Positions 26,346-43,357 are shown, numbered from the stretch's first letter. The stretch is DNA of 64,000 nucleotides from Phycisphaerae bacterium (GCA_030432905.1 JAUILU010000002.1:136084-200083); one strand, 5' to 3'. The notes: generated from the letters alone by a model not told the origin. Translations and numbers: made by a program.

Positions 26346-26436
26346 CGTCCGTCCTCCGACGTGTGTGGTGTGTGCAATCAGATTCAAAGGCGCCCGGTCC
26401 GCTCTCACAGACCGAACGCAAGAGGGTTAAAGCGAA

Positions 26437-27072: not shown

Positions 27073-27129
27073 TTTGATTTCTCTCTTTCGTTTACGAATT
27101 GAAAGCGTGATAGCAGTTGATCTGCGGGC

Positions 27130-27816: not shown

Positions 27817-27903
27817 GGCTCACTCCTTCGCCTTGGCCGACGCACGCAACACGCGCGCACCGGCTCTCCCAGTGACCAATCCGATTGGAACAACAAACCG
27901 AGT

Positions 27904-28329: not shown

Positions 28330-28384
28330 ACCAATCCCGCCGGCAGGCTTTCACCCGCCGGCGAGTCGTCCTTTCAATGCGAGG

Positions 28385-29089: not shown

Positions 29090-29178
29090 CGTGCGTCCTC
29101 CTGTGCATGTCTCAAACAATCTCAGAATCCGCCCGATCAGCCTTCACCGACCGGGCGAGGAATCACATCAAGTGTCGC

Positions 29179-29817
29179 TTACCGGCGACGGCGCGCCGCG
29201 ACCAAGCCACCAAGCCCGAGCACAGCAGCCGAGGTCGGCGCAGGAACCGCGGTCCAGTCGAGCGTCACGCTGTCAGAGCCGAAACCCGCAAGCGGCGCGC
29301 CGGTGACCGCGTCGCCGAGGTACACGGTGAACGACGCCTCGTAGTCGCCCAGCGCCGGGGCCGCGACCCACGGGTGGTGCATGTTGCCGTTCCACTGCCA
29401 GTTCGCGTCGGAACCATCGGTGCCAAAGAGCGGCGCGTAGGTGTGGTTGGCGCGCATCATCCGCATGCCGCCCTCGTAAATCTCAAGCCCCGCGGTCGAG
29501 CTGGTCATCTCGACCCAGATCGCCGAGTCCTGCGGCAGCGAGATGAACCCGTCTGCGAGGAAGCCGTACTGGCTCGAGATGTACATCCCGTCGAGCACAT
29601 CGGCGGGCGAGGTGTGCGCATCGCCGTAGTTCACCATGGGCAGCGGCGTCGGCTCCGGGTTGACCAGGTGGTCGATCTCGACACCAACGTTCGTGCCGTC
29701 GAACGTGATCAGCACGTGCTTCATCGCGCCCTCGAACTGGGGCCAGACCTGCGCACCGGCGCTCCCGGCGGCGGCAACAACCGAAGCAACACAAACAACT
29801 CTCGTAGCACTGAACAT
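29179..29817 (-). CDS. secreted protein (family B) ending in a PEP-CTERM sorting signal
   Basis: Start MFSATRVVCVAS (29817). YAPLFGTDGSDANWQWNGNMHHPW and VYLGDAVTGAPLAGF. C-terminus VPAPTSAAVLGLGGLVAARRRR. Confidence 0.8.
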   Translation of the reverse strand: MFSATRVVCVASVVAAAGSAGAQVWPQFEGAMKHVLITFDGTNVGVEIDHLVNPEPTPLPMVNYGDAHTSPADVLDGMYISSQYGFLADGFISLPQDSAIWVEMTSSTAGLEIYEGGMRMMRANHTYAPLFGTDGSDANWQWNGNMHHPWVAAPALGDYEASFTVYLGDAVTGAPLAGFGSDSVTLDWTAVPAPTSAAVLGLGGLVAARRRR

Positions 29818-29916
29818 AGCTAGCTCTCTTTCTCTGTCTCTTTCATCCGGGCAGAACACAGCCCGGCCCATGTCAATCGAATAAACAACCAAGGCTTGTA
29901 CGGGCGCAGAACGGGC

Positions 29917-30678
29917 TTACCAGCCCCGAGGATCCCAGAGGTCCTTCTTGCGCTCGGCACTGAACGTGTCTTCGTACTTCATGACCGTCGCGTGGCCGTC
30001 AACAAACACGTACCCCTCGCCCGGCTCGAATCGATCGGTCGCGACCGAGCTGTTTGGGGCGCTGTTGTTCTTCCACGTGTGCGCCATGTGGTGGTCTGGT
30101 GTTCTTCTGCTCTCTTCATCGCCGAGCGACGCGAACAGAATGGTCTCCGCGGGCCTGGATACGGTCCTCTGGTACACGAACGGCTTGGCGTCGTCGAGCG
30201 AGCGCTTCGACGGAGCGATCTCCCGCCACTCCAACTCGAAGTACACACTCTGGCCGAAGCTGTTCACCGGGACGTTTGTCACGGCGATATCCCCGGGCAT
30301 CTGAACCCGCGAGTCCAGCGGCGAGCGGTAGTTCTCGTTGACGACAGCGAGCCACGCCTCTTCTTCGGGCGGGTCCAGCGGATCGAACGCGTCGCCCGAG
30401 AAGTACTCGTACAGCGCGTAGTTCCAGGGGAAGCCGTTCTCGAACCAGTTAAGACGAGCCGAGTGCGAGGTGTTCTGGATCCGACCCTTGTTCGTGTCGG
30501 CATAGAACGTGCTGGCCATCCCGAGATCGCGCAGCCGCGACATCGCGAGCACACCGCGTGCGCGGGTGCGCGCCTTGCCGAGCGCCGGGAGCAGAATCCC
30601 GATCAGCACAGCGATGATCGCGATCACCACCAACAGTTCTATAAGCGTGAACCCACAGGCTCGCTTCGTGCGTGCCAT
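29917..30678 (-). CDS. DUF1559-type prepilin (second copy)
   Basis: 253 aa. CGFTLIELLVVIAIIAVLIGILLPALGKART, and C-terminal YVFVDGHATVM. Confidence 0.85.
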   Translation of the reverse strand: MARTKRACGFTLIELLVVIAIIAVLIGILLPALGKARTRARGVLAMSRLRDLGMASTFYADTNKGRIQNTSHSARLNWFENGFPWNYALYEYFSGDAFDPLDPPEEEAWLAVVNENYRSPLDSRVQMPGDIAVTNVPVNSFGQSVYFELEWREIAPSKRSLDDAKPFVYQRTVSRPAETILFASLGDEESRRTPDHHMAHTWKNNSAPNSSVATDRFEPGEGYVFVDGHATVMKYEDTFSAERKKDLWDPRGW

Positions 30679-30766
30679 CGGCGTGCGCCTCCGTTGAGTC
30701 CGCCGCGCACATCGCGCGCAACAGACAGCCTCGTACCCAGAAGATCAGAACAACAGATCACAAAGA

Positions 30767-31225
30767 TCAGCCGAACGATCGGGGAGGCGGCGCGGGCACA
30801 TCAAGCTTGGTCAGGGATTCGACCTCAACACCGAGCGCGACAAGACGCTCGCCCTTGAGCTCTGCAAGATTCAGCAGCCGACGCTCGCCGGCGTCAAACA
30901 CCGGGGGGACAGCCGCGATCAGCCATTTCAGTTCGGGCGTGCAGCTGATCGTCATCAGCGCAAAGCCGGTGTCGCTGTCGTCCTGCGAAACGTCATCTTC
31001 TTCGGTTGCCGCTTTCGCAGCACAGCAGCACGACCCGCTCGTCGAGCAAGACGAGGCCTCGCCGCAGGAGCAGGCGCCGTCGCCCGCCGTGTCGGCAACC
31101 GAGAAACCGATGTTCGAGAGGAAGCTGGCGACGGGTCTCGGCATCGGGACCGCCGCGAGGCTCGCGCACAGATACAGCCCAATCAGCGTGGCGATCACAC
31201 CCCTAGATTGAACCATCCGACGCAT
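30767..31225 (-). CDS. small Cys-cluster membrane protein (cassette B)
   Basis: Start taken at MRRMVQSRG (31225; track ORF starts at 31276). TM helix, CSCGEASSCSTSGSCCCAAK, acidic linker (EEDDVSQDDSD), tail PAPPPRSFG. Confidence 0.5.
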   Translation of the reverse strand: MRRMVQSRGVIATLIGLYLCASLAAVPMPRPVASFLSNIGFSVADTAGDGACSCGEASSCSTSGSCCCAAKAATEEDDVSQDDSDTGFALMTISCTPELKWLIAAVPPVFDAGERRLLNLAELKGERLVALGVEVESLTKLDVPAPPPRSFG

Positions 31226-31351
31226 AGCGCTCCGTTCCAAGCTGCACCCGGCGGCGCAGAACGCGCCACGGGCCATCTATCTATACGACAGGCTAACGCA
31301 AACAGATCGCCTGATCTGCATCATTTTGTCCGGTTTCACAAGAACAGCCCG

Positions 31352-32335
31352 CTAACCGCCCAAGAGATCCGCCAGCACCGCCATCCGGACCAGCGTCCCC
31401 GCGGAGACCTGTTTCCGCACGACCGAGTTCGGGCCGTCGGCGACCGTGCCGTCCATCTCGAGGCCCCGGTTCATGGGTCCGGGGTGCATGATGACGGCCC
31501 CGGGCTTCATCCCGCCCGCTCTTCGCTCGGTCAGGGCATAGAGCGAGCGATATTCTCGGACCGATCCAACGCCCGGTGGCGAGCCCGGTTTGTCCGAGCC
31601 GCCCGAGCCGTGCCGCTCGAACTGGATCCGCAGCATCTGCACAGCGTCGAGTTCGCCCAGCACCGCATCCAGATCGCTGGATACCTCGCAGCCGAGCACT
31701 TCCAATGACCTCGGCGCCAAGGGCGCGGGTCCGACACAGATCACCCGCGCGCCGAGTTTGGTCATCGCGATGATGTCCGACCTCGCCACGCGTGAGTTGA
31801 CGATGTCGCCCACGATCCCGACGGTGATGCCCGACAGATCGAACGACGATTCGCGTCCGCCGCCGAGCGCTGCCGCCAGCGCGTAGACGTCGAGCAAACC
31901 CTGCGTCGGGTGCTCGTGCGCGCCGTCACCCGCGTTGATGACCGGCACGTGCACATGCTTTGCGATCAGCTCCGCCGCGCCCGCGGCCCCGCTCCTGACG
32001 ACCAGGGCGTGCCCGCCCGTGGCTTCGACCGTCAGCGCTGTGTCCACGAGCGTCTCGCCCTTGGTCACGCTCGAGCCCGGCCCTGTCAGGTTGGTGATCC
32101 CCGCGCCAAGGTTCCTCGCCGCCAGCGAGAAACTCACGCGCGTCCGGGTCGAATCCTCAAAGAACAGGTTGCACACGCTTTTGCCCGAGAGCCTCGCGCG
32201 AAGCTCGGCGTCCTGCTTGGGCATGCCGGTGCAATCGTCGAACGACCGCGCCAGGGTGAGCAACGACACAAGCCTCTCGCGGGTCTGGCCCGCCAGATCG
32301 ATCATGTTTCGGCTGTGATCGATCGCGTGTGTCAT
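31352..32335 (-). CDS. pyrB: aspartate carbamoyltransferase catalytic subunit
   Basis: 327 aa with FFEDSTRTRVSF, HPTQ and HPGPMNRG motifs. Confidence 0.92.
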   Translation of the reverse strand: MTHAIDHSRNMIDLAGQTRERLVSLLTLARSFDDCTGMPKQDAELRARLSGKSVCNLFFEDSTRTRVSFSLAARNLGAGITNLTGPGSSVTKGETLVDTALTVEATGGHALVVRSGAAGAAELIAKHVHVPVINAGDGAHEHPTQGLLDVYALAAALGGGRESSFDLSGITVGIVGDIVNSRVARSDIIAMTKLGARVICVGPAPLAPRSLEVLGCEVSSDLDAVLGELDAVQMLRIQFERHGSGGSDKPGSPPGVGSVREYRSLYALTERRAGGMKPGAVIMHPGPMNRGLEMDGTVADGPNSVVRKQVSAGTLVRMAVLADLLGG

Positions 32336-32988
32336 CAGCCCCCGTTCTCGGCCGGCGCTTCCTCAGCCGAACCCTCGGGCTCGGCCTGGGCGTCCGGCTC
32401 TGCGTAGAACGCACGCTCGACGTCCTCGATCGTGTGCAGCGCGGGTGTGGCGATCGTGCCGACCTCGCGCCAGCGCGTCCGCTCGATGCTCCGCGCACCC
32501 GTCGAGCCCTTCATCCACACCTCGACACCCACGTTCACCGGGTTCGGCACGTTCTGCTCGAGACCCGTGATCGGGCGGAGCACGTCGACTCGAACCGTCG
32601 CGCCGCGGATGCTGACCGCGCCGATGTGGTAAACCGGCAGGCCATCGTTCGACTCGCTCAGGGGCACCGCCCGGCCGCCGGCGTTGGCGGCGATCCAGCG
32701 GTAGCTCTCCGGCGCGATCCCGCCCGGGATGTTAACAGCAACCAGAGGCCCGTCGCCGGGAAGCTCCATGTTCGTCTGGTCGGCGATGTCTTTCTCGATG
32801 ATGTACTTGAGCGCCTTAGCCATCGGCTCACGGATCGAGGCCGTGTCGCGGGCGTTGATCCACGTCACGCCCTCTTCCTGCGGGTAGTTGCTGTAGGTCA
32901 GGCAGCCGCCCGCCGTCAGAATCCCCAGCATCCCCGCCGCGAAAGCAGCCTTTGTCGTGTGCCCAAAACGCCTGTTCGATCGATTCAT
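32335..32988 (-). CDS. lipoprotein of unknown function
   Basis: Start MNRSNRRFG (32988). Lipobox-like LTAGGC. The stop overlaps the pyrB start by 1 nt. Confidence 0.55.
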   Translation of the reverse strand: MNRSNRRFGHTTKAAFAAGMLGILTAGGCLTYSNYPQEEGVTWINARDTASIREPMAKALKYIIEKDIADQTNMELPGDGPLVAVNIPGGIAPESYRWIAANAGGRAVPLSESNDGLPVYHIGAVSIRGATVRVDVLRPITGLEQNVPNPVNVGVEVWMKGSTGARSIERTRWREVGTIATPALHTIEDVERAFYAEPDAQAEPEGSAEEAPAENGG

Positions 32989-33090
32989 GCCCGGTAGCTC
33001 CCACCGTGTTTGTACCCCGCTGCCAATCTCCCGCGGAGTGGTCACACTCTACGCCGATCCCGACCCGCCTACCACACCCTACCATTTGCC

Positions 33091-33699
33091 GTGACTGACC
33101 GACCCAAACGTTTCGTCGTGGGCATCTCGGGCGCCAGCGGAGCCGCCTACTCCCTCAGGCTCCTCCACCTCCTGCTCCAATCGGGTGCCGAAGTCCACCT
33201 CGTTGTCTCCGAGTATGGCAAGCGGCTCCTCGCCGAGGAAGCGGGCGTCACCAAAATTGACCCGCAGTCGCTCCTGCCCGAACTCATCGATTCCGACGGC
33301 TCGTACGCCTACAAGCTCATCTGTCACCCGAACAAAGACGTCGGGGCCGTCATCGCATCGGGCAGCTTCATCCACGACGGCATGGTCATCGTCCCCTGCA
33401 GCTCAACCAGCCTGGGCGCGGTTGCCTCGGGTTCGGGCAGCAACCTGCTCACCAGGGCCGCGATGGTCACGCTCAAGGAGCGCCGGAACCTGATCGTCTG
33501 CCACCGCGAATCGCCCCTGAACCTGATCGACATCGAGAACATGCGCACGCTCACGCTCGCCGGCGCGACCATCTGCCCGACCAACCCCGGCTTCTACCTC
33601 AAGCCGCTGACCGTGGGCGACATCGTCGACTTCACCGTCGGCAAGGTTCTCGACCTGCTCGGCGTCGAGCACACGCTCGCGACGAGGTGGGAAGGGTGA
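33091..33699 (+). CDS. ubiX: flavin prenyltransferase UbiX
   Basis: RFVVGISGASGAAYSLRLL..L......VHLVVS..G... and CS..SL.A.A.G....L..RAA.V.LKERR.L typical of UbiX/Pad1. GTG at 33091 is preferred over the track start at 33010. Confidence 0.88.
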   Translation: MTDRPKRFVVGISGASGAAYSLRLLHLLLQSGAEVHLVVSEYGKRLLAEEAGVTKIDPQSLLPELIDSDGSYAYKLICHPNKDVGAVIASGSFIHDGMVIVPCSSTSLGAVASGSGSNLLTRAAMVTLKERRNLIVCHRESPLNLIDIENMRTLTLAGATICPTNPGFYLKPLTVGDIVDFTVGKVLDLLGVEHTLATRWEG

Positions 33700-34442
33700 A
33701 CCCGGAGCACGAGCGGGGAGTACCGCCCCAGCTCCTGCTCGGCGCGGAGCGCACGTTCGCCGGCGCGTCGGACAAGTACCTCGCCGCGATCCGTCGCGGG
33801 CTATTCATGCTTTTCTTCGGCATCATTGTCGCTGTGCTGTCAATGCCCGTCGTTGTGTTGCTGGTGCACGCCGCTCCGCTCGTGTCGATCCTGACCGCGC
33901 TGCTCTGCCTGCCTGTGATTTTCGTCTTGCTCTTCGGCGGCTGGTTTTTCATCAGCACCAAAGACAAATCATCGTTCTCCGAGCCCCGGCTCAGCCAGAT
34001 CGGCCTGCGCCTGTGCCTGCTCGCATACCTCGCGCTCTTGCCGATTGCCGTGTACTACACCAGCACCGACCCCGACGGCAGCACCACCGAGAACCTGAAA
34101 CTCGCGACGAAAGTCGTCTCGTTCTTCATCACCGGCGCAGGCTTTACCATCCTGCTTCACCTCGGCTCACGGTCGAACCGTTACAAAACGCTCCGGCTCA
34201 ACATGATCATGGCCAAGCTCTTCCGGTTCGGCGTCATGTTCGGCATCGCGACCTACGGCTCGATCCTGCTCGGGATCACCGTCATCACCGTGCCCGTCGC
34301 GCTCATCGCGGTCACGCTGTTCACAATCACGTTCGTCCTCAGCATGATCCTCCAGATCAAGATTGCAAGAGAGATAGGCGAAATCCGTAAGATCACCAGG
34401 CGAGTCATGAAAGAAGCACGAACCCAAGGCCCTGCGATCTGA
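33687..34442 (+). CDS. multi-TM protein G0, ribbon-less member of the zinc-ribbon membrane family
   Basis: 251 aa. The start overlaps the ubiX stop (GTG 33687, or GTG 33696 giving a GTGA overlap). GGWFFISTKDKS resembles GWIRVTTQDPKL of G1. Confidence 0.6.
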   Translation: MGRVNPEHERGVPPQLLLGAERTFAGASDKYLAAIRRGLFMLFFGIIVAVLSMPVVVLLVHAAPLVSILTALLCLPVIFVLLFGGWFFISTKDKSSFSEPRLSQIGLRLCLLAYLALLPIAVYYTSTDPDGSTTENLKLATKVVSFFITGAGFTILLHLGSRSNRYKTLRLNMIMAKLFRFGVMFGIATYGSILLGITVITVPVALIAVTLFTITFVLSMILQIKIAREIGEIRKITRRVMKEARTQGPAI

Positions 34443-34455
34443 TACCCTTGCGAGC

Positions 34456-35517
34456 ATGAATCAACCGGGCAACCAAGCCGACCAACTCGCAAGCCAGAGA
34501 GCCGACTCGGGCCAGCACCCAGAATTTATCTGCCTCGCCTGCGGCTACGACCTGACGGGCCTCGCTCCCGGGTGCAACTGTCCAGAGTGCGACGCCAAAA
34601 GCATGCCGCCGACCGGACCAGAGGGCTCGCTCGGTACGCACATCATCTGCCCGACCTGCGGCTACAACCTCGGCGGGCTCAAACTCGAATCCGTTTGCCC
34701 CGAATGCAACGCGCCATGCAAAGACGCTGTCGTCAAGCATTCCCTCTACCAATCCGGCGGAAGGTACGTCTCAACTCTGGCCAGCGGCGCTTCACTCGTC
34801 CTGCTCTCGGCGTACCTGTTCGTCGGCGGCATACTCGCCATGGTTATCGCAGTTTTCGGCGCGGGCTGGCTCGGCTCGATCAGCGGCGGCATCGGGCCAG
34901 CCGCGGGCTGGCTGCTCGGCATGCTTGTTTATCTTGTCATGATCCTCGGCGCTTCGATCGTCTGGCTGATCGGCTGGATCCGCGTCACCACCCAAGATCC
35001 CAAGCTCAAGCACACCGCGCCGTCCAACGGCAGCCGGGGCCTGACACGGGGCATGGCGATCACCGTCTTCACGCTGCTGATTATCCAGATCGTCCCGATC
35101 ATCGGCTCGCTCGCCGCGCTCGCGAACATGGTCTGCATGGCGATCTTCTTCTTCGCGTCGTGCAGCTACCTGCGCGCGCTCGGCCGGCGCATCCCCGACT
35201 ACAAACTCGTCCGCACGGTCGGGATGGTCCGGGTGGTTGTCATCATCCTGCTCCCGATCTTGCTGGTCTCGATCGTAACCATCGCGGTTTCCGCAGCATC
35301 AGCGCTGAGCACCGCACCCGGCGGCATCAGCGCCGGCATGGGTGCGCTCGCCATGCTCTTGATGTTCATCTCTGGCCTCGGCCTGATCTGGGCCTACCTC
35401 CGCCTCGTGGGCCAGTTCGCCAAGTCGATGAAAGCCGTCCGCGACCGCGCCCGGAGCATGCCGAGCAGCTTCACGCCAAACGCGCCCACGCGCAGCCCAG
35501 CCGAAAGCCCGTACTAA
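34456..35517 (+). CDS. zinc-ribbon membrane protein G1 (two ribbons)
   Basis: 353 aa. CLACGYDLTGLAPGCNCPEC and CPTCGYNLGGLKLESVCPEC, then SLYQSGGRYVSTL and at least 6 hydrophobic helices. Confidence 0.7.
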   Translation: MNQPGNQADQLASQRADSGQHPEFICLACGYDLTGLAPGCNCPECDAKSMPPTGPEGSLGTHIICPTCGYNLGGLKLESVCPECNAPCKDAVVKHSLYQSGGRYVSTLASGASLVLLSAYLFVGGILAMVIAVFGAGWLGSISGGIGPAAGWLLGMLVYLVMILGASIVWLIGWIRVTTQDPKLKHTAPSNGSRGLTRGMAITVFTLLIIQIVPIIGSLAALANMVCMAIFFFASCSYLRALGRRIPDYKLVRTVGMVRVVVIILLPILLVSIVTIAVSAASALSTAPGGISAGMGALAMLLMFISGLGLIWAYLRLVGQFAKSMKAVRDRARSMPSSFTPNAPTRSPAESPY

Positions 35518-36435
35518 GTGTGCGCCGCACACAACAACCAGTCTCTGGCGTGCGCCAACTGCGGCTACAACATGGCCGGCCTGCCCGACACACAGCCATG
35601 CCCGGAGTGCGGCAAAATCGATTTCGAGATCATCTCGTTCCTCGGAGTCCCGACGCACTTTCTGCGGACGACCCACTCAGGCGCCCGCATCGTCACGGTC
35701 GCCTACTTCTTACTCGGGCTCTCGTTGCTGTTGTGGGTGATCGGCTATCTTGTGCTGATACCGCTGTCAGATTGGCTGATCGAGAACAACAGCCCCCTGG
35801 TTACAAACCAAGGGGCTCTGAGCAATCTGCATTGGTTTGTCTATACAGATCTCTATGATGCATGCCGGCTGCTGCTCATTGTCGGAATGATCGGATTCGC
35901 CATCGGCTGGTGGAAACTGGCAAAGCGGCCCAACAAGTATGGCATCCACGGCGAGCTTGCCAAGCACACATTCACGCTCCGGCTTTCTAGCCTCAGCTTG
36001 GCTTCATTCTTTGGCATGCTCTTCGTCGAGCACATGATGAACTACTTGGTGCTGTACGTCATCGTCACGGCTTGTCTCGGGCTGTTCATCATTGATTCCA
36101 CGTCGTTCATGCGAAAGATCGCCGAGCTGTCGAACTCCCCGAAGCTACAGAGGCGGGTCGCAAAGTGCCGGCGTGCGAACTTCATGTACTTCGCAGTTGT
36201 GGCTTTGTTGTGTATTTTGGTGGTGCTGCAGCCTGTGCTGGAGCCCAAACAGCCCGCGAGTCGCGCGACGGCATATGCCCCGGAAATGTCGGCCTATGAC
36301 GTCATGCTGGTTTGGGCATTCAATACCATTCTTGTTCTTGGTCTCTTGGTCAACTTCCTGAACACAATCGCCGTCGCCACACTCTCTTCAACACTCAAAT
36401 CCGCACGCAGGCTTTCGCCGGAAGCAATCACCTGA
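35518..36435 (+). CDS. zinc-ribbon membrane protein G2 (one ribbon)
   Basis: 305 aa. GTG start directly abuts the G1 TAA stop. CANCGYNMAGLPDTQPCPEC plus TM helices. Confidence 0.65.
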   Translation: MCAAHNNQSLACANCGYNMAGLPDTQPCPECGKIDFEIISFLGVPTHFLRTTHSGARIVTVAYFLLGLSLLLWVIGYLVLIPLSDWLIENNSPLVTNQGALSNLHWFVYTDLYDACRLLLIVGMIGFAIGWWKLAKRPNKYGIHGELAKHTFTLRLSSLSLASFFGMLFVEHMMNYLVLYVIVTACLGLFIIDSTSFMRKIAELSNSPKLQRRVAKCRRANFMYFAVVALLCILVVLQPVLEPKQPASRATAYAPEMSAYDVMLVWAFNTILVLGLLVNFLNTIAVATLSSTLKSARRLSPEAIT

Positions 36436-36453
36436 TCTGATACCATCACGACA

Positions 36454-37542
36454 ATGAGTTCTGCTCAAGACAAGCCGAGCCGCCCCTGCCCAAAGTGCGG
36501 CTACGACCTCACGGGTGTGCCGAGCGAGAAGCCCTGCCCCGAGTGCGGCTCATCAAACAACTGCGTCCGCTGCGGCTACAACCTCGTCGGGCTCAAGCAC
36601 GGCACAAAGTGCCCCGAGTGCGGCAAAGTCAGCCCGAACCCAGATGCGCACAACGCCGACAAACTCGACGCATTCTGCTTCTGCACCGGCTGCGGCTACC
36701 ACCTCTACACGATCGACAAAGACGCCAGTTGCCCCGAGTGCGGCCAACCCGCCAGCGAATCCGCCATCGAACAATCCCTCTACCGCTCAGGCGCGACCTA
36801 CTTCCACTCGCTCTACCGGGGCTACCTATCTGTGCTTGTCGGACTGATCGTTCTGATCGTCGGCCCAGCATTGGTTTTCGGTGGACCGACACTGACTCAA
36901 TTTATCGCAAGATTGGCGGGTGCGGGCACGAATCCATTTGCCGGGATGTCGCTGTACGGGATTCTGTTCCTGGCGTGCACGGTCGGCGGCGGGCTCGTGC
37001 TCTTGGTCGGTTCGATGACTGTCACCATGCGCGACCCACACCTCGGCGCTTACGCCGATTCAGAGAAAGTGCGCATGATCACGCGCTTCATGGCCATCAT
37101 CAACTTCCTGCTTTACTGCCCTGGCATGATCTGCCTCCCCTTCGTCGGCATCGCCACGGGCGGTATCGGTATGTTGACCATCGCCATTCTTTACATAGGC
37201 TGCGCCGCCACGCTCATCATCACTTCGGTCGCCTACACCGAACACATCGCCCGCCGGCTCGGCACGAAACGGCTCATCAAAGCAACCAACACCTACAGCG
37301 TCGTGCTCATAATCCTCATGGCCCTCTCGCTTTTCTTCGGCCTGCCCCTGCTTCTGACCATCTTCGGCACAGCGAACGAGACACTCATCGCCGTCGCGGG
37401 CATCGGGTTCACAGTTGTCTTCTTCGTCGGCTTTTTGGTCTACCTCCTGCTCGTCTTAAGTATGACAAGACAGCTCCGGCTCGCGATCCGCCGGGGCGAA
37501 GCCATCCCAAGAACACTCATCCCCGGCGACCGAAAGCCATGA
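36454..37542 (+). CDS. zinc-ribbon membrane protein G3 (three ribbons)
   Basis: 362 aa. CPKCGYDLTGVPSEKPCPEC, CVRCGYNLVGLKHGTKCPEC and CTGCGYHLYTIDKDASCPEC, then SLYRSGATYFHSL, TM helices, and SMTVTMRDPHL. Confidence 0.7.
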   Translation: MSSAQDKPSRPCPKCGYDLTGVPSEKPCPECGSSNNCVRCGYNLVGLKHGTKCPECGKVSPNPDAHNADKLDAFCFCTGCGYHLYTIDKDASCPECGQPASESAIEQSLYRSGATYFHSLYRGYLSVLVGLIVLIVGPALVFGGPTLTQFIARLAGAGTNPFAGMSLYGILFLACTVGGGLVLLVGSMTVTMRDPHLGAYADSEKVRMITRFMAIINFLLYCPGMICLPFVGIATGGIGMLTIAILYIGCAATLIITSVAYTEHIARRLGTKRLIKATNTYSVVLIILMALSLFFGLPLLLTIFGTANETLIAVAGIGFTVVFFVGFLVYLLLVLSMTRQLRLAIRRGEAIPRTLIPGDRKP

Positions 37543-38354
37543 CCACGACACCGCTCCCAGCCAACACCCACTGCATCAGCTGCGGCTACGACCTCGCGGG
37601 CCTCGCAGAATCCGGCGTCTGCCCGGAGTGCGCCGCGCCCTGTTCTAAAACAGTTGAGCACATCAAGGCCCGCGAGAAAGAGCACGACCCGATCAAATCG
37701 GTCCGCGATGGCCTGCAGAACATGCTCACGAGCTATTGCATCGTCGCATGCGTCGCGGCGGTTGCGGTTGTACTTGGCATCCTGCGAAGCCGTGTTGAGC
37801 CGTTCGATTCAATTTTGTATCTGCTCGTGCCCGTTGCGCTTATCGCGATCGCGGTCATCTTCACGACAGGGATCGGTTCGCTGATCTCCGCGTATCCGAG
37901 CCACAAGGACCCTTCCAAGCCCTGCATCTCGCAAGAGCTTATGGCAACAACAACCCTTGTCGGCGTCGTGGCCCTGCTGCCATTCCTTGTGTTCAGCAAC
38001 TACGTCTCGGCGACGGTCCTCCACAGCGCGCTGCCCGCGGTGTTCTTCCTGTTTATCCTCGCCACCGCGAGGTCGCTGCACAACGCCGCCTTGCACCTGG
38101 GAGTTGCCCGGACGGGTGCGGTTACGTCGGCAATTCTTACGCTGTCTTCGCTTGTGTTCGTCGTGATCGTCTGCAGCTCATTGGCAAGAGAGTACATCAT
38201 CGACACCTACACCCCAAGGCTCCTCGGCCTCACCGGCGGTCAGTGGCAGGACATCTTCTATCTCTCGCTCCTCGCACTCGCCGCCACGCACTTCCTGCTC
38301 ATCTTCTACTTCTGGCTCAAACTCAAGCCCCGGCTCGGAGCAGCCAAACCATGA
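37539..38354 (+). CDS. zinc-ribbon membrane protein G4 (one ribbon)
   Basis: 271 aa. This is the last part of track ORF 36495..38354. ATGA overlap with G3. MTTTPLPANTHCISCGYDLAGLAESGVCPEC plus TM helices. Confidence 0.65.
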   Translation: MTTTPLPANTHCISCGYDLAGLAESGVCPECAAPCSKTVEHIKAREKEHDPIKSVRDGLQNMLTSYCIVACVAAVAVVLGILRSRVEPFDSILYLLVPVALIAIAVIFTTGIGSLISAYPSHKDPSKPCISQELMATTTLVGVVALLPFLVFSNYVSATVLHSALPAVFFLFILATARSLHNAALHLGVARTGAVTSAILTLSSLVFVVIVCSSLAREYIIDTYTPRLLGLTGGQWQDIFYLSLLALAATHFLLIFYFWLKLKPRLGAAKP

Positions 38355-39214
38355 CCACCCCGCTCCCCGCCAACACCCACTGCATCGGCTGCAACTACGA
38401 CCTCGCGGGCCTCACAGAAACAGCCGTCTGCCCGGAGTGCGCCCTGCCGTGCATCAACTCGCGCCTCGGCGACACGATGTACAACCAGAGCAGGCCCTAC
38501 CTCAAGCGGCTTGCGACCGGAACGCGGCTTGTCATGTGGGCGTGCGCGCTGGCTTTCATCCAAGCGGCTTACATCGTTGTGCTCATTGCAACAGGCAGCG
38601 ATTGGTACATTGTGTCTGTTTCGAACCTAATCTCGGCCCTGGCCCTTGCCTTGTCGATCTTTGGTTGGTTCAAAATGACCAGCCAAGACAATCCAGATCG
38701 GCCAATGAACCGGAGAACACTGGGCATGACAGCTATGCGGGTCCTGTGTGTCGCCAAAATCCTGAGCCTGTTCATGGGGATCTTTATGTTCGAGTACATG
38801 AATCTTGTGCTCGGCTGGACAGCCGCTGCGGTCGTTGGCATGCTGCCAATAGTCTTGTATCTTTCGCTGGCGGTAGAACTCACGAACCGGGCGGTGTCGC
38901 GGATACCGCACCTGTACAACCGGCGCACCATGCTCACAGCGCGCGTCGCCTGCCATGTGTTCGGGGCTCTGTTCTTTTTGTGTTGGACGGTTTACATCGC
39001 AGACATGGAACACGCCCTCTTTGGCGGGGCTTTGTATTCAAATGTATCGACCTCAGAGTTGATAGTCACAGCCACATATGCCTCCCGGCTGGCCGCGTCA
39101 CTGGCACTATTCCTGGCGCTGCTGCATCTGTCTCGGAACCTGAAGACCGTGCGAACGCGTCTGCGTGAGAACGCGCAGCTAGCCGCGCCGCCCGCGCCCC
39201 CGGCCGCCCCGTGA
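38351..39214 (+). CDS. zinc-ribbon membrane protein G5 (one ribbon)
   Basis: 287 aa. Internal ATG of track ORF 38243..39214. ATGA overlap with G4. MTTPLPANTHCIGCNYDLAGLTETAVCPEC plus TM helices, and FGWFKMTSQDNPD. Confidence 0.65.
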   Translation: MTTPLPANTHCIGCNYDLAGLTETAVCPECALPCINSRLGDTMYNQSRPYLKRLATGTRLVMWACALAFIQAAYIVVLIATGSDWYIVSVSNLISALALALSIFGWFKMTSQDNPDRPMNRRTLGMTAMRVLCVAKILSLFMGIFMFEYMNLVLGWTAAAVVGMLPIVLYLSLAVELTNRAVSRIPHLYNRRTMLTARVACHVFGALFFLCWTVYIADMEHALFGGALYSNVSTSELIVTATYASRLAASLALFLALLHLSRNLKTVRTRLRENAQLAAPPAPPAAP

Positions 39215-42200
39215 ATCCTCCGGGTCGATCGACTTGCCACCCACAAGCGTCGCGATCCCCTCGCCGAGCAAACCCGCGGCTTCCTTCACAAACTCGGGCT
39301 CAAGCTCAACTCGAAACGCGGGTTCGGGCGCCACGGTGATCTGTTGGCCCTCGGCCTCGAAGTCAAGAAGCACCGGCACGACCTCGCCCTTGGGCTTCTG
39401 CCCGCCCGGCGCGATCGCCTTGCCCGCGAGGAACCGCTGCAGGTTCTCGACCGTCTGCTTGCCCGTGCCGTTGAGCTTGGCGGTGCGCACCGCAAGGTGC
39501 AGCCTGCCCTTCTCAAGAGGCAGCCCCTCGATGGGCACCATCTTGTCGACGATGATCTGCGGGTTGCCCCGGCTGTGGTCCATGCGCCCGAGCACGAACT
39601 TGGGCCCGTCGTCCTCGAACAGATGGCCGTACTTGGCGAAGCAGTCGGCGAACATCACCGAGTCCGCCGTCCCGGTCAGGTCCTCGAGCGTGACGATCGC
39701 CATCTTCTGGCCCGCGCTCCGGCCGTTGCGCACCACGATCGTCCGCACACTCTGCGCAAGAGCCGCGACGATCACGCGCTTGTCCTGCGGCACATCCGCA
39801 AGGTCCGCCATCCGAAGCTTGGCGAACACGCCCGACCAGTCCTTCCACTGCTCGAGCGGGTGGCTCGACACGTAAAACCCGAGCGTTTCCTTCTCCTGCC
39901 GAAGCGTCTCCGCCTCGCTCCACGCCTCGGCCTTCACGAGCGGCACAACCGTCTGCGTCGCGCCCGAATCTTCCGGATCGGGTGCGCCAAACAGCGCGCC
40001 CTGGCCCGCCGCCCTGTCCGCGGCGAGTTTCTGCCCGGCACTGACGGCCTGCTCGATCGTCGCCACCATGCTCGCCCGCTCGTCGCGCGAATGCACCTCG
40101 TCGAACGCGCCGCTCTTGATCAGTGCCTCGATCGTTGCCTTGTTCACCGTCCCCGGCGGCACGCGCTCGCAGAACTCGAACAGCGACTCGTACCCGCCGT
40201 CCTTGTCGCGTTCGTCGATGATTGCGCCGATCGCCTTGGCGCCCGCGCCCTTGATCGCCTTCATCCCGAACCGCACGTGGCCGCCCGAGGGCGTGCGCTC
40301 GTCGCTCGGCTCGTACACCACCGCGAAGTCCGCCTCGGACAGGTTCACGTTGGGCGGCCGCACCTCGACACCGGTCTTGATCACCGCGCCCGTCATCGGG
40401 TCGATGAACTTCGTCCGCTTGCAGTCCTCGAGGTACGGGATCCAGTCGCTGACCTTCTGCGCCTGGCTCTCGAAGCTCAGGAACGCAGCCATGTAGTGCG
40501 CGGGGAAAAACGTCTTGAGGTACGCCGTCTGGTACGCCACGATCGCGTAGCCCGTCGAGTGCGACTTGTTGAAGCCGTAACCCGCGAACTTCAGGATCAG
40601 CTCGAAGAGTTCGTTCGCTTTCGCCGCTTCCAGACCCTTCTCGCCCGCGCCCTTGACGAACAGGGGCCGGTTCGCGCCGATGATCTTCTCTTTCTTCTTG
40701 CTGATCGCCTTAATCAGCGAGTACGCCGAGCGCAGCGGGATCCCGCCCAGCTCGTGCACGATCTGCATGACCTGTTCCTGGTACACCATCACGCCGTACG
40801 TCTCTGCCGTGAAGTGATCCACGATCGCGTGTACCTTCGGCACAGCCTGCTTGCCGTGCTTGCGCATGTTGTAGTCGGGGATCAGGTCCATCGGGCCGGG
40901 GCGGAACAGCGCGTTTGCAGCGATGAGGTCCTCAAGCCTGTCGGGCTTCATCTCCATCAGCAGCCTGCGCATGCCGCCCGATTCAAACTGGAACACGCCC
41001 GTCGTGTCGCCCCGCTGGAAGAGCGCGAAGATGCGCTGGTCCTTGTAGCCAAGCCGCTCAAGGTCCATCGGGTTCGGGCCGCCGTCGCCGACCTCGCGAC
41101 CGACCGCGGCATATATCTGCTCCTTGTTCAGCGAGTTCTCGATGAGCTGCTTGGCCCGCTCGATCACGCTGAGTGTGCGCAGGCCGAGGAAGTCCATCTT
41201 AAGAAGGCCCATCGCCTCGCACGTCGGCCCGTCCCACTGGGTGACGATCTCGTTCTCGCCGCCGCCGCTCTGCCGATACAGCGGCACCACTTCGTGCAGG
41301 GGTCTCGTCGCGACGATCACGCCCGCCGCATGCACGCTGCTGTGCCGCGCCTGTCCTTCGAGCACGCGCGCGTTGTCGATCACACGCTTGGCAACATCGT
41401 CCGTGTCGTACAGCTTCTGCAGATCCGGCTCGGCCTTGAGCGCCTTGTCGAGCGTAATACCCAACTCTTCCGGGATCAGCTTCGCCAGCTTGTCCGTGTC
41501 GGTCAGCGGGTACTCAAGCACCCGGCCCACATCGCGCACCGCGGCACGCGCCTTGAGCGTCCCGAACGTGATGATCTGCGCTACGTGCCCGTACTTCTCG
41601 CGCACGTAATTGATCACATCCCCTCGCCCGTCCTGGCAGAGGTCGATATCGATATCGGGGTATTCCGATCGGTCCGGGTCCGTGAATCGTTCGAACAGCA
41701 AGCCGTAGTGCACCGGGCAGGCGTTGGAGAGACCCAGCACAAACCCGGTCATCGTGCCCACGCCCGAACCACGAGCGATCGACGGGATGCCGCGCTGGCG
41801 CCCCCAGTTGACGAAGTCCCACACGATCAGGAAGTACGCGCTGATCAGCTTGTCCGACAGGATCTTCAGCTCGCGGTTGAGCCTCGCCCACTTGCGCCAG
41901 CCATCGAGCTTGTCGCCCTCAAGCTCGGGCTCGTCGCCCACGCCCTCGACGACCTTGTGCCGATGGTCCATGATCCCCGGCCCGTAGCGCCAGACCATCC
42001 CCGCCTCGCACAAGAGCCTGAGTGTTTTGTCACACTCAACCGTGAGCGACGCCTGATCCTGATCGGGGTCGTTGGCCGGCTCAAGCTCAAAGTGCGAGCA
42101 GTACGCCTTGAACCACGCGGTCAGGTCGCCGTCAAACTCCTCGTCGGTGACCTTGGGCAGCTCCTTCTTGGGCGGCGCTTTGACGACCACCACCGGCGCA

Positions 42201-43177
42201 TGGTTCGCGTCCTCGGGCAATTCGACGTTGCACCGGTCGGCGATCCGCTGCGTGTTGAGCAGCGCTTCCTCGCCCGCCTTGCCGTAGTCCGAGTTGTTGT
42301 ACTCGGGCCCGCCGAAGATCTCCCACATCTGCTCCGGGCTCTTGACGTAGAGCTCGGGCGTGTAGCGCATCCGCGTCTCGTCGAACTTGCTCTTGCCCGT
42401 CGAGATGCAGATCAGCGTGTCGTGCGCGTCGTGGTCCTCGGCCTTCAGAAAGTGGCTGTCGTTGTCGCACACGATGGGCAGCTTCAGATCCCGCGCGATC
42501 CGAATCAGGTGTGGGTTGATCGAGATCTGCTCCGGGATGTGGTGCTGAAGCTCGACGAAGAACCTGGGCCCCGTCCCCTCGTCCGCGAACACCCGCGCAT
42601 GCCACTCGGCGCTCTCGACGGCTTTCTCATAGCTCGACCGGTCACCACGCTCGATGCCGCCCGAGTTCTCGTAGCTCAACAGGTGCTCGCCCATCTCCGA
42701 CCCGAGGTGGCCGTTGATCGCGATCAAACCGGAGTTGTGCGTTTCGAGCAGGTCGCGGTCCATCCGGGGCTTGAAGTAGAACCCCGTCAGGTACGCCTCC
42801 GAGCACAGGTACAACAGGTTCTGCCAGCCCGTCACGTTCTCCGCCAGCAGCACCAGGTGGTACCCGCCGTCGGACACGCCCGTGTAGGTCTTGTCGAGCC
42901 GGCTCTTGGGCGCGACGTACGCCTCGACCCCGAGGATCGGCTTGATGCCCTCGGCGCGGGCCTTCTTATAGAAGTTCACCGCCGCGTGCATGTTGCCGTG
43001 GTCCGTCACCGCAAGGGCGTTCATGCCCAGCTCTGCGGTGCGTTTCACCAGCTTATCCAACCGGTTGCCCCCGTCGAGGAGGGAGTATTCGGAGTGCAAG
43101 TGCAGGTGGACAAAGGGCTTATCGGACACAGCCGCCCCGCCGCCCTCGGCACCATCATGTAGTGGTTCTTGGCTCAT
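39179..43177 (-). CDS. dnaE: DNA polymerase III subunit alpha
   Basis: PHP domain FVHLHLHSEYSLLDG, then polymerase core and OB-fold regions. About 1330 aa. ATG at 43177 (MSQEPL); a GTG at 43201 is also possible. Confidence 0.95.
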   Translation of the reverse strand: MSQEPLHDGAEGGGAAVSDKPFVHLHLHSEYSLLDGGNRLDKLVKRTAELGMNALAVTDHGNMHAAVNFYKKARAEGIKPILGVEAYVAPKSRLDKTYTGVSDGGYHLVLLAENVTGWQNLLYLCSEAYLTGFYFKPRMDRDLLETHNSGLIAINGHLGSEMGEHLLSYENSGGIERGDRSSYEKAVESAEWHARVFADEGTGPRFFVELQHHIPEQISINPHLIRIARDLKLPIVCDNDSHFLKAEDHDAHDTLICISTGKSKFDETRMRYTPELYVKSPEQMWEIFGGPEYNNSDYGKAGEEALLNTQRIADRCNVELPEDANHAPVVVVKAPPKKELPKVTDEEFDGDLTAWFKAYCSHFELEPANDPDQDQASLTVECDKTLRLLCEAGMVWRYGPGIMDHRHKVVEGVGDEPELEGDKLDGWRKWARLNRELKILSDKLISAYFLIVWDFVNWGRQRGIPSIARGSGVGTMTGFVLGLSNACPVHYGLLFERFTDPDRSEYPDIDIDLCQDGRGDVINYVREKYGHVAQIITFGTLKARAAVRDVGRVLEYPLTDTDKLAKLIPEELGITLDKALKAEPDLQKLYDTDDVAKRVIDNARVLEGQARHSSVHAAGVIVATRPLHEVVPLYRQSGGGENEIVTQWDGPTCEAMGLLKMDFLGLRTLSVIERAKQLIENSLNKEQIYAAVGREVGDGGPNPMDLERLGYKDQRIFALFQRGDTTGVFQFESGGMRRLLMEMKPDRLEDLIAANALFRPGPMDLIPDYNMRKHGKQAVPKVHAIVDHFTAETYGVMVYQEQVMQIVHELGGIPLRSAYSLIKAISKKKEKIIGANRPLFVKGAGEKGLEAAKANELFELILKFAGYGFNKSHSTGYAIVAYQTAYLKTFFPAHYMAAFLSFESQAQKVSDWIPYLEDCKRTKFIDPMTGAVIKTGVEVRPPNVNLSEADFAVVYEPSDERTPSGGHVRFGMKAIKGAGAKAIGAIIDERDKDGGYESLFEFCERVPPGTVNKATIEALIKSGAFDEVHSRDERASMVATIEQAVSAGQKLAADRAAGQGALFGAPDPEDSGATQTVVPLVKAEAWSEAETLRQEKETLGFYVSSHPLEQWKDWSGVFAKLRMADLADVPQDKRVIVAALAQSVRTIVVRNGRSAGQKMAIVTLEDLTGTADSVMFADCFAKYGHLFEDDGPKFVLGRMDHSRGNPQIIVDKMVPIEGLPLEKGRLHLAVRTAKLNGTGKQTVENLQRFLAGKAIAPGGQKPKGEVVPVLLDFEAEGQQITVAPEPAFRVELEPEFVKEAAGLLGEGIATLVGGKSIDPEDSRGGRGRGRRG

Positions 43178-43357
43178 AACACCCAATATCAGTGTACCCA
43201 CGGCCCCGAAAAACCCAGCCGGGATCCCGCGCCAAGTAGCTTACGCCGACGAAACCGCCCCCGCCCCACTCCCGGCAACCGACAGGCGATCCACACCAGA
43301 CACACCGCCCATGCCCAGCCTGCAAACCGCCGACCCCAAGCCCCATAGAGTCTCAAG

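What the first reader, a model, noticed from the sequence alone, without database searches (positions are those of the whole stretch)
33687..39214. Six-gene array of paralogous multi-TM proteins with 0-3 N-terminal CxxCGY[DN]LxG..CPEC zinc ribbons, translationally coupled to ubiX
Immediately after ubiX come six same-strand genes with almost no spacing.
- G0: its start overlaps the ubiX stop.
- G1: starts 13 bp after G0.
- G2: GTG start abuts the TAA stop of G1.
- G3: starts 18 bp after G2.
- G4 and G5: ATGA overlaps.
Five of them start with 1, 2 or 3 copies of a very regular ribbon (eight copies in total):
- CLACGYDLTGLAPGCNCPEC
- CPTCGYNLGGLKLESVCPEC
- CANCGYNMAGLPDTQPCPEC
- CPKCGYDLTGVPSEKPCPEC
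- CVRCGYNLVGLKHGTKCPEC
- CTGCGYHLYTIDKDASCPEC
- CISCGYDLAGLAESGVCPEC
- CIGCNYDLAGLTETAVCPEC
In G1 and G3 an SLY[QR]SG motif follows the ribbons; all five then have 4-6 TM helices and a conserved loop (GWIRVTTQDPKL / SMTVTMRDPHL / GWFKMTSQDNPD / GGWFFISTKDKS).
G0 has the membrane core but no ribbon.
I know of no described function for this architecture. A locally expanded, tightly coupled family with a variable number of cytoplasmic Zn modules looks like a dedicated system (a receptor or scaffold set, or an immunity-like paralog series). The physical coupling to a prenyl-FMN synthase gene is unexplained.
Basis: partly seen in the sequence, partly recalled or inferred. Interest (0 to 1): 0.8.

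Follow-up and report, generated by a model that had tools for sequence, protein, structure and literature searches.

The report
Zinc-ribbon-capped membrane protein family, tandem array
Six adjacent genes encode members of a large, undescribed family of six-helix inner-membrane proteins found only in Phycisphaerae-type planctomycetes. Most carry 1-3 small zinc-ribbon modules on the cytoplasmic side; their function is unknown and the link to ubiX is only local gene order.

Summary
Six same-strand, abutting or overlapping genes (33687-39214) follow ubiX, and five carry eight copies of a 20-residue C-x2-C-G-Y-[DN]-L-x-G-L-x4-C-P-E-C ribbon. G1, G2, G3 and G5 are clear paralogs. G0 (no ribbon) and G4 are divergent members.

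The membrane core matches nothing in Pfam, NCBIfam, PADLOC, PHROGs or PDB sequences. AlphaFold gives a confident six-helix bundle with no Foldseek match in the PDB.

A profile of the core finds about 2,100 protein clusters. All 80 genome loci recovered are Phycisphaerales or other Planctomycetota, usually one gene among unrelated housekeeping genes. ubiX appears next to a member only in the window's own clade, so the coupling is local synteny.

In that clade the array is a fast-evolving island: 2, 3, 4 or 6 genes at 31-50% identity between flanks at 78-94%. It is still under purifying selection. Adjacent paralogs keep near-identical ribbon heads while their cores diverge.

Charge distribution and conservation put the ribbons and every conserved motif on the cytoplasmic face, with almost nothing in the periplasm.

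Best reading (inferred): membrane-anchored cytoplasmic docking platforms, possibly hetero-oligomeric. An immunity-like paralog series is not excluded.

The parts
33091..33699 (+). ubiX (flavin prenyltransferase). Upstream co-directional neighbour; its stop overlaps the G0 start. Context, not a functional part.
   Evidence: NCBIfam NF004685 scores 193.2 bits (cutoff 188) and TIGR00421 178.7 bits; Pfam Flavoprotein 6e-38. The 202-aa form matches relatives.
33687..34442 (+). G0: ribbon-less, divergent family member, 251 aa (alternative GTG start at 33696). Seen only in this lineage.
   Evidence: 26.7 bits against the HMM of non-window members; best of 200 shuffles 7.3. The alignment covers the pre-TM1 motif, TM1, TM2 and the GW..ST.D loop. 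GC3 is 0.83. No counterpart in L002, L004 or L005.
34456..35517 (+). G1: two ribbons (nt 34531-34590 and 34648-34707) plus a six-helix core, 353 aa. This type is present in every relative's array.
   Evidence: Ribbons. AlphaFold pLDDT 87.7, pTM 0.81, six helices. Orthologs at 47-50% identity in L002, L004 and L005.
35518..36435 (+). G2: one ribbon (35551-35610) plus core, 305 aa. The GTG start abuts the G1 stop.
   Evidence: Core scores 47.2 bits against the non-window HMM. Weak ortholog L005_a at 22% identity.
36454..37542 (+). G3: three ribbons (36487-36546, 36562-36621, 36682-36741) plus core, 362 aa.
   Evidence: BLASTP against G1 gives 1e-29. Orthologs L002_b and L005_c at 38-41% identity.
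37539..38354 (+). G4: one ribbon (37572-37631) plus a strongly diverged six-helix core, 271 aa. ATGA overlap with G3.
   Evidence: hhalign of its orthogroup against the family gives E=6e-5, probability 64%. AlphaFold pLDDT 88.1, with the same helix and loop pattern as G1. Orthologs L002_c and L005_d at 31-36% identity. Only 3 clusters found in the database.
38351..39214 (+). G5: one ribbon (38381-38440) plus core, 287 aa. ATGA overlap with G4. Its 3' end overlaps the dnaE 3' end by 36 nt.
   Evidence: Core scores 34.4 bits against the non-window HMM. Closest relative L004_a at 33% identity.
37545..37642 (+). Homogenised 5' segment (N-terminus plus ribbon) of G4. It is 87% DNA-identical to 38354-38451 in G5, while the rest of the two genes is not alignable.
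   Evidence: At protein level the ribbon region is 80% identical and the core 21%.
38354..38451 (+). The G5 copy of the homogenised 5' ribbon segment.
39179..43201 (-). dnaE (DNA polymerase III alpha). Convergent downstream flank that bounds the variable island.
   Evidence: Pfam domains on its orthologs. 88-94% aa identity to relatives.

Best explanation
G0-G5 are six members of an undescribed, Phycisphaerae-restricted family of polytopic inner-membrane proteins.

Each is a six-helix bundle with both ends in the cytoplasm. In most members the N-terminus carries 1-3 Cys4 zinc-ribbon modules. The ribbon nearest the membrane, the pre-TM1 segment and two conserved cytoplasmic loops (GW..T..DP...R...R and Y......R.P) probably form one cytoplasmic cap. 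Almost nothing protrudes into the periplasm.

Inferred mechanism: the proteins act as membrane-anchored docking platforms. The bundle fixes them in the membrane, and the acidic ribbon heads bind a cytoplasmic protein partner or each other. Extra ribbons on flexible linkers would add avidity.

The conserved, overlap-coupled G1-G3-G4 trio suggests co-produced subunits of a hetero-oligomer. G0, G2 and G5 are lineage-specific additions.

The array sits in a fast-evolving island between ubiX and dnaE. The ubiX adjacency is synteny, not function.

Shown: gene structure, family membership, distribution, predicted topology and fold, rates of evolution, ribbon homogenisation.
Inferred: zinc binding, cap formation, partner docking, hetero-oligomer formation.
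For: - Architecture and family: eight ribbons. Collinear motifs run across 13-147 sequences.
- Size and composition: the core-only profile finds 2,133 clusters at E<=1e-3 and 844 at E<=1e-10. Of the 148 best hits, 134 carry 1-3 ribbons of the same 20-aa form.
- Structure: G1 model pLDDT 87.7, pTM 0.81, six long helices. The proximal ribbon has pLDDT 89-95; the distal ribbon and linker have 52-80.
- Topology: K+R cluster at TM2/3, TM4/5 and the C-terminus (about 5, 5.6 and 4.5 per protein). The three opposite loops have 0.1, 0.4 and 0.0.
- Conservation: cytoplasmic loops and helix extensions have majority frequency 0.47-0.50, membrane segments 0.31, periplasmic loops 0.19. Every position conserved in at least 90% of sequences lies at the cytoplasmic face.
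- Charge: the N-terminal region is acidic (D+E 8.3 vs K+R 4.7), which favours protein binding over nucleic-acid binding.
- Shared heads: adjacent paralogs keep ribbon regions 77-90% identical while cores are 21-39% identical, in four independent arrays.
- Conserved trio: the G1-G3-G4 order with 4-nt overlaps is kept in L002 and L005.
- Generic module: the same ribbon sits next to TM helices, at the N- or C-terminus, in unrelated membrane proteins of the same clade.
- Precedents: the cytoplasmic zinc ribbons of the membrane proteins ZitP (binds PopZ; PMC5182065) and GltJ (binds MglB and an internal linker; PMC11135422).
Against: - No partner is identified, and no neighbouring gene is conserved across the family.
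- Zinc binding, cap formation and oligomerisation are untested.
- The AlphaFold confidence for G4 comes from an alignment seeded with family members, so it leans towards the family fold.
- Rapid divergence and copy-number change are unusual for a stoichiometric housekeeping complex.
- The ribbons are not members of the ZitP/GltJ ribbon family, so the analogy is only architectural.
Confidence: 0.4

Rival explanations
1. Immunity-like or conflict-related paralog series. Each diverged membrane core neutralises, or is the variable target of, a different membrane-acting toxin, bacteriocin or phage protein. The common ribbon head handles a shared cytoplasmic step.
For: - The array is a variable island with 2, 3, 4 or 6 genes at 31-50% identity between flanks at 78-94%.
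- dN/dS is 0.10-0.52 for the array against 0.013 for dnaE.
- Tandem arrays arise repeatedly: 14 of 80 loci.
- GC3 of G2-G5 is lower than that of the flanks.
Against: - No toxin, secretion-system or mobile-element gene lies beside the array.
- No PADLOC or PHROGs match and no viral copy.
- 66 of 80 loci hold a single member among housekeeping genes.
- The periplasmic surface is minimal in this clade, and conservation is cytoplasmic.
- Gene-wide dN/dS stays below 1.
Confidence: 0.2
2. Membrane-tethered regulators (anti-sigma-like or sequestration factors). The ribbons hold a transcription factor or other soluble regulator at the membrane.
For: The cytoplasmic ribbons are acidic, modular and homogenised between paralogs. 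Zinc-binding anti-sigma domains exist in other bacteria (own knowledge, not tested here).
Against: No sigma-factor or regulator gene recurs next to family members. There is no sensing domain on the periplasmic side. The HxxxCxxC anti-sigma motif is absent and no Pfam anti-sigma family matches.
Confidence: 0.1
3. A six-TM transporter, channel or membrane enzyme, with the ribbon as a regulatory cap.
For: Six TM helices with both ends inside is a common transporter layout. Conserved Arg, Asp and Tyr residues at the cytoplasmic interface could bind a charged head group.
Against: - No position conserved in at least 90% of sequences lies inside the membrane; the TM segments are poorly conserved apart from a few Gly, Pro and hydrophobic positions.
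- No fold match to any transporter, channel or enzyme: best Foldseek E=0.18, TM-score at most 0.3.
- No sequence match to PDB, Pfam or NCBIfam.
Confidence: 0.1
4. Functional partners of UbiX (prenyl-FMN or quinone biosynthesis), as the physical coupling suggested.
For: The ubiX stop overlaps the G0 start. ubiX is the co-directional upstream neighbour in all four clade genomes.
Against: - UbiX is absent from all 82 loci outside the clade.
- G0, the overlapping gene, is lineage-specific.
- ubiX is 84% conserved while the array is 31-50% conserved.
- No UbiD- or UbiA-like gene is in the array.
Confidence: 0.04

Closest known systems
ZitP (Caulobacter) and GltJ (Myxococcus): membrane proteins with an N-terminal cytoplasmic Cys4 zinc ribbon
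   Same: A small Cys4 ribbon at the cytoplasmic N-terminus of a membrane protein, on a flexible linker, used as a protein-docking or switch module. ZitP binds PopZ (PMC5182065). GltJ binds MglB and its own linker (PMC11135422).
   Different: - Those proteins are bitopic, with large extra-cytoplasmic domains.
- Their ribbon is longer: GltJ has C5, C8, C28, C31, a 19-residue spacer, against 12 residues here.
- No sequence relationship was detected.
- Here there are 1-3 ribbons on a six-helix core and no periplasmic domain.
Generic Pfam zinc-ribbon families (DZR PF12773, Zn_Ribbon_1 PF13240, DUF7129 PF23455, rubredoxin-like RUBY_RBDX PF21349)
   Same: The CxxC...CxxC knuckle pattern. These are the only models that give any score.
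   Different: All scores are below the curated cut-offs. The best are G3 with DUF7129 at 29.7 (cutoff 30) and DZR at 26.1 (cutoff 27.3). The G-Y-[DN]-L-x-G-L and C-P-E-C-G signature is much more specific than these models, and none of them covers the membrane core.
Tandem arrays of polytopic immunity proteins next to bacteriocin or T6SS toxin genes (own knowledge)
   Same: Tandem, fast-diverging, multi-TM paralogs with variable copy number.
   Different: No cognate toxin or secretion genes are present. Most family members are single genes among housekeeping genes. Conservation is cytoplasmic. There is no PADLOC hit.

Membership tests
Undescribed Phycisphaerae 'zinc-ribbon + six-helix' membrane family (defined here from alignments A2, A3, A5) | N-terminal ribbon(s) of the form C-x2-C-G-Y-[DNS]-L-x-G-L-x4-C-P-E-C | tested here: met
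   G1 has 2, G2 has 1, G3 has 3, G4 has 1, G5 has 1 and G0 has none. 134 of the 148 best family hits carry 1-3 and 14 carry none, so a ribbon-less member is within the family's range.
Undescribed Phycisphaerae 'zinc-ribbon + six-helix' membrane family | Significant similarity of the ribbon-free core to a profile built from non-window members | tested here: met
   G2 core 47.2 bits, G5 core 34.4 bits, G0 26.7 bits; best shuffle 7.3. The independent evidence for G1 and G3 is BLASTP to members from other genomes: 4e-97 and 7e-85 to L002_a and L002_b, and 1e-21 and 4e-18 to the distant members in L006; their 329- and 252-bit profile scores come from profile A2, which contains G1 and G3 themselves. 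The G4 core fails the HMM test (4.8 bits). Its orthogroup profile matches at hhalign E=6e-5, probability 64%, so G4 is inconclusive by sequence.
Undescribed Phycisphaerae 'zinc-ribbon + six-helix' membrane family | Six TM helices, N-in and C-in, with a loop of about 12 residues bearing G-W-x-x-x-[ST]-x-x-D-P after TM2 | tested here: met
   AlphaFold helices for G1 are 102-142, 147-177, 191-210, 217-245, 249-284 and 293-334. For G4 they are 51-83, 89-118, 130-151, 155-187, 192-223 and 233-268. Positive-inside charge pattern. The loop motif is present in G0, G1, G2, G3 and G5 and degenerate in G4 (YPSHKDPSKP).
Pfam zinc-ribbon families (DZR, Zn_Ribbon_1, DUF7129, RUBY_RBDX) | Score at or above the curated gathering threshold | tested here: not met
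   All matches are below cut-off for all six proteins and for ten wider family members.
ZitP/GltJ-type ZnR | Cys4 ribbon with a spacer of about 19 residues and sequence similarity to that family | tested here: not met
   The spacer here is 12 residues, against GltJ C8...C28. No Pfam ribbon family beyond the sub-threshold ones listed appears at E<=1.
UbiX/UbiD prenyl-FMN system accessory proteins | Recurrent genomic association with ubiX or ubiD across the family | tested here: not met
   UbiX homologs occur only in the window and in clade loci L002-L005. None occurs in L006-L087.
Known anti-phage defence or phage protein families | Match to PADLOC or PHROGs models, or presence on viral contigs | tested here: not met
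   The best PADLOC match has E=0.03 and the best PHROGs match E=0.004, both short TM stretches. No relative is found in IMG/VR.
Any structurally characterised membrane fold (PDB) | Foldseek E<=1e-3, or a profile hit to a PDB chain | tested here: not met
   Best Foldseek E=0.18 with TM-score at most 0.31. Best hmmsearch E=0.15. AlphaFold DB was not available to search.

The most novel reading that the evidence does not exclude
The 20-residue ribbon is a clade-wide cytoplasmic address tag. Dozens of otherwise unrelated Phycisphaerae membrane proteins carry it next to a TM helix, at the N- or C-terminus. All would dock through it onto one still-unknown cytoplasmic hub, for example a membrane-organising, polarity or FtsZ-independent division scaffold. 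This six-helix family would be the main carrier, and arrays would tune the valency. That would be a new, lineage-specific system for organising membrane proteins.
Probability: 0.12. Interest if true: 0.8.

Novelty: new variant of a known kind. Interest (0 to 1): 0.5.

Why it matters
Phycisphaerae are abundant and almost unstudied at the molecular level. By my own knowledge (not tested here) they divide without FtsZ.

This family has about 2,100 clusters at 50% identity and a confidently predicted bundle unlike anything in the PDB. It also carries a sharply defined zinc-ribbon head that is reused on other membrane proteins of the clade. That makes it a concrete entry point into membrane organisation specific to this group.

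It also deserves a family model: none exists in Pfam or NCBIfam, and the members with a source annotation are labelled 'hypothetical protein' apart from one evident misannotation.

The ribbon-conserved, core-diverged pattern in adjacent paralogs is a clean case of module-specific concerted evolution.

If the genes prove to be a mere membrane scaffold of unknown partner, the result is a useful annotation rather than a discovery.

Tried and rejected
- Pfam, NCBIfam, PADLOC and PHROGs scans of all six proteins and of ten wider members gave only sub-threshold ribbon hits.
- A PDB sequence profile search and a Foldseek search of the PDB gave no significant hit.
- hhalign of single G0 and G4 sequences against the family gave E=0.037 (G0, 25 columns, probability 1.4%) and E=0.55 (G4), too weak to accept. 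This was resolved later with the HMM-plus-shuffle test (G0) and an orthogroup profile (G4).
It worked with a tighter subfamily, so the taxonomic range seen is a lower bound tied to that subfamily's patterns.
With an artificial double-ribbon profile it returned only proteins or fragments of 105 aa or less with no domain context, so it said nothing about other architectures.
- Neighbour clustering over 80 loci looked for a conserved partner gene. The largest real cluster covers 13 of 80 loci and looks like an aromatic amino-acid hydroxylase by eye (no family scan was run on it); the rest look like MGMT, SpeA, FtsH, LpxK, SerRS and PepA by eye. No functional theme emerged.
- The viral contig scan found nothing.
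- Literature searches for the motif and the architecture found no description. 'CPECG' has zero occurrences.
- A fused-chain AlphaFold run to mimic a hetero-dimer was considered and rejected, because unpaired alignments could not be interpreted.

Full report
**1. What is in the sequence**

ORF listing and junction inspection give this layout on the + strand:
- ubiX 33091-33699. NCBIfam UbiX subfamily scores 193 bits against a cutoff of 188.
- G0 33687-34442.
- G1 34456-35517.
- G2 35518-36435.
- G3 36454-37542.
- G4 37539-38354.
- G5 38351-39214.
- dnaE converges on the - strand at 39179-43201.

The G0 start overlaps the ubiX stop. The gaps are 13 nt (G0 to G1), 0 nt (G1 to G2, with GTG directly after TAA) and 18 nt (G2 to G3). 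G3/G4 and G4/G5 have ATGA overlaps.

All eight quoted ribbons are present. They also form an 8-copy DNA repeat family. The motif occurs nowhere else in the window.

GC3 is 0.74-0.83 in the stated frames. dN/dS is 0.10-0.52 for G1-G5 against a 96.6%-identical relative whose contig starts inside G1, compared with 0.013 for dnaE. The five tested are therefore real genes under purifying but comparatively weak constraint, and GC3 supports G0.

**2. Are the six paralogs?**

- G1~G3 (BLASTP 1e-29, full length), G1~G2 (8e-6) and G1~G5 (4e-13) are clear.
- G0 gives no significant BLASTP hit to any array paralog (best E=0.39). It scores 26.7 bits against an HMM built only from non-window members, while the best of 200 shuffles scores 7.3. 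The alignment covers the pre-TM1 motif, TM1, TM2 and the GW..ST.D loop. G0 is a ribbon-less, divergent member.
- The G4 core is not recognised by the HMM (4.8 bits). The profile of its orthogroup (G4, L002_c, L005_d) aligns collinearly with the family at hhalign E=6e-5, probability 64%.
- The AlphaFold model of G4 (pLDDT 88.1) has the same ribbon-plus-six-helix layout and loop-length pattern as G1. One caveat applies: its alignment included family members.

**3. The wider family**

- The core matches no family in Pfam, NCBIfam, PADLOC or PHROGs, and no PDB sequence. The ribbons reach only sub-threshold scores for generic zinc-ribbon models.
- A ribbon-free core profile searched against 1.84 billion representatives finds 2,133 clusters at E<=1e-3 and 844 at E<=1e-10.
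- Of the 148 best hits, 134 carry 1-3 ribbons with the same 20-residue spacing and the G-Y-x-L-x-G-L / C-P-E-C signature. The counts are 14 with none, 105 with one, 27 with two and 2 with three.
- Where a source names a member, the name is 'hypothetical protein', apart from one JGI label 'flagellar biogenesis protein FliO' on P0011 that no other evidence supports.
- A scan of one genome per species returned 80 loci. All are from Phycisphaerales, Phycisphaeraceae or Planctomycetota MAGs. No relative occurs on viral contigs.

**4. Genomic context**

In the window's own clade the order is pyrB, a hypothetical gene, ubiX, the array, then dnaE. This order is conserved with 3 genes in L002, 2 in L004 and 4 in L005.

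Orthogroups:
- G1 = L002_a = L004_b = L005_b.
- G3 = L002_b = L005_c.
- G4 = L002_c = L005_d.
- G2 is weakly related to L005_a, and G5 to L004_a.
- G0 has no counterpart.

The flanks are 78-94% identical at the protein level. The array orthologs are only 31-50% identical. The array is therefore a fast-evolving island with variable gene content.

Outside the clade the picture differs:
- 66 of 80 loci hold a single member, and 14 hold tandem sets of 2-4.
- The neighbours appear, by inspection of the sequences, to be unrelated housekeeping genes (aromatic amino-acid hydroxylase-like, MGMT, SpeA, FtsH, LpxK, SerRS, PepA), and none is shared by more than 13 loci.
- No UbiX homolog lies within 8 kb.

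The ubiX coupling is thus local synteny. The overlapping gene G0 is itself a lineage-specific insertion.

**5. Structure and topology**

- With a 147-sequence alignment, AlphaFold models G1 at pLDDT 87.7 and pTM 0.81. The model has six long helices. The proximal ribbon has pLDDT 89-95, and the distal ribbon and linker 52-80.
- Foldseek finds nothing significant in the PDB: best E=0.18, TM-score at most 0.31.
- Across the family, K+R cluster at TM2/loop2/TM3, at TM4/loop4/TM5 and at the C-terminal helix end. The three opposite loops have 0.0-0.4 K+R. This gives N-in, C-in, with the ribbons in the cytoplasm.
- Periplasmic loops average 3.3, 22.5 (highly variable; about 6 in this clade) and 1.5 residues.
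- Conservation is highest in cytoplasmic loops and helix extensions (0.47-0.50), lower in the membrane (0.31) and lowest in the periplasm (0.19).
- All positions conserved in at least 90% of sequences face the cytoplasm: the four Cys, G111, G173, D181, P182, R194, R198, Y238, R245, P247 and Y314.
- None of the positions conserved in at least 90% of sequences lies within the membrane-embedded part of a helix.
- The N-terminal region is acidic.

**6. Ribbon-specific concerted evolution**

The N-terminus plus ribbon of adjacent paralogs is nearly identical while the rest of the genes has diverged:
- G4/G5: 87% over 98 nt. Ribbon region 80% identical, core 21%.
- L002 b/c: 83% at the DNA level.
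- L005 c/d: 91% at the DNA level.
- L084: three genes with ribbon regions 83-90% identical and cores 34-39% identical.

Heads are therefore kept alike within an array while cores differ.

The same ribbon also occurs next to TM helices, at the N- or C-terminus, in unrelated membrane proteins within the roughly 1.2 Mb of Phycisphaerales DNA fetched. It is a reusable cytoplasmic module.

**7. Interpretation**

The shown facts point to a cytoplasm-facing function for a membrane-anchored protein with a modular, probably zinc-binding head. The closest characterised analogies are ZitP and GltJ. Their N-terminal cytoplasmic zinc ribbons dock PopZ, or MglB and an internal linker, respectively (PMC5182065; PMC11135422). 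This is a 'works like' analogy only. Spacer length and sequence differ, and membership tests fail.

I therefore favour, at about 0.4, membrane-anchored docking platforms. The conserved, overlap-coupled G1-G3-G4 trio may act as co-assembled subunits.

Rivals:
- An immunity- or conflict-type paralog series, about 0.2. Island behaviour and elevated dN/dS support it. The lack of toxin, secretion or mobile genes argues against it, as do the single-copy housekeeping context elsewhere, the cytoplasmic conservation and dN/dS below 1.
- Membrane-tethered regulators, about 0.1.
- A transporter, channel or enzyme, about 0.1. No position conserved in at least 90% of sequences lies inside the membrane, and there is no fold match.
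- A UbiX partner, about 0.04. The distribution contradicts it.

**8. Verdict**

- The ubiX linkage is incidental.
- An extracytoplasmic receptor role is unlikely.
- The general type, a cytoplasmic zinc ribbon on a membrane protein, is known. The six-helix core family, its restriction to Phycisphaerae and the head-conserved, core-diverged arrays are new.
- Function remains inferred. Interest is moderate.

Noticed in passing
window 35518-35572 (G2 start); L001 2048: The public gene call for G2 (L001, 287 aa) starts at the internal ATG, M19. That start would cut off the first CxxC of the conserved ribbon. The GTG at 35518 is the only start codon that keeps the whole ribbon, so the deposited start is probably wrong.
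   Followed up: partly
window 36495-38354 (+): A 619-aa ORF in the mechanical list is an artefact. It runs out of frame through G3 and continues in the G4 reading frame. The real G4 starts at 37539.
   Followed up: yes
window 39179-39214: The 3' ends of G5 (+) and dnaE (-) overlap convergently by 36 nt. The same overlap is seen in L002, L004 and L005 (for example 12897-12932 in L002).
   Followed up: partly
window 37539-38354 vs L088 3073-3888: Against the 96.6%-identical relative, G4 has dS of 0.215. Its neighbours and dnaE have 0.01-0.10. This suggests a recombination or gene-conversion tract confined to G4.
   Followed up: no
window 35518-39214: G2-G5 have lower GC (0.56-0.60) and GC3 (0.74-0.78) than the flanking pyrB, ubiX and dnaE (GC3 0.85-0.89).
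   Followed up: no
window 25578-31276 (-): Upstream lies a run of eight small same-strand genes. Two have prepilin-type N-methylation motifs and two have weak dockerin/EF-hand-like C-termini. The block is conserved in L002, L004 and L005.
   Followed up: partly
L011 7462-8145 (-), L042 14958-15662 (-), L042 16522-16821 (-), L025 7724-8104 (-): A different protein type in these genomes has an N-terminal TM helix, a putative periplasmic domain, a second TM helix and then the same ribbon at the extreme C-terminus. The ribbon is therefore not tied to the six-helix core.
   Followed up: partly
L084 8468-11342: In an unrelated Planctomycetota MAG, three adjacent paralogs carry almost identical ribbons (CG[YF]CGYAL[KR]GMSADQKCPEC) on cores only 34-39% identical. 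This is an independent case of head homogenisation.
   Followed up: yes
L006 7896-12183: In a more distant genome, two family members flank a cupin gene directly downstream of ftsH. FtsH-like ORFs (identified by eye; Pfam-annotated only in L006) lie upstream of the family gene in six further loci (median about 3.8 kb upstream). This may be lineage synteny only.
   Followed up: no
L041 (JAJDDJ010000013.1, 653,458 bp) 7965-9706: The NCBI contig that carries the window's exact proteins is 653,452 bp long, almost the length of this OFTM382 contig. If it is the same contig, the genome has a second two-member array about 600 kb or less away. This was not verified.
   Followed up: no
window 32300-39800: The simple scan finds 17 terminator-like hairpins against 4.9 expected from shuffles. 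Most lie inside coding sequence and on the antisense strand, so they are probably compositional.
   Followed up: no
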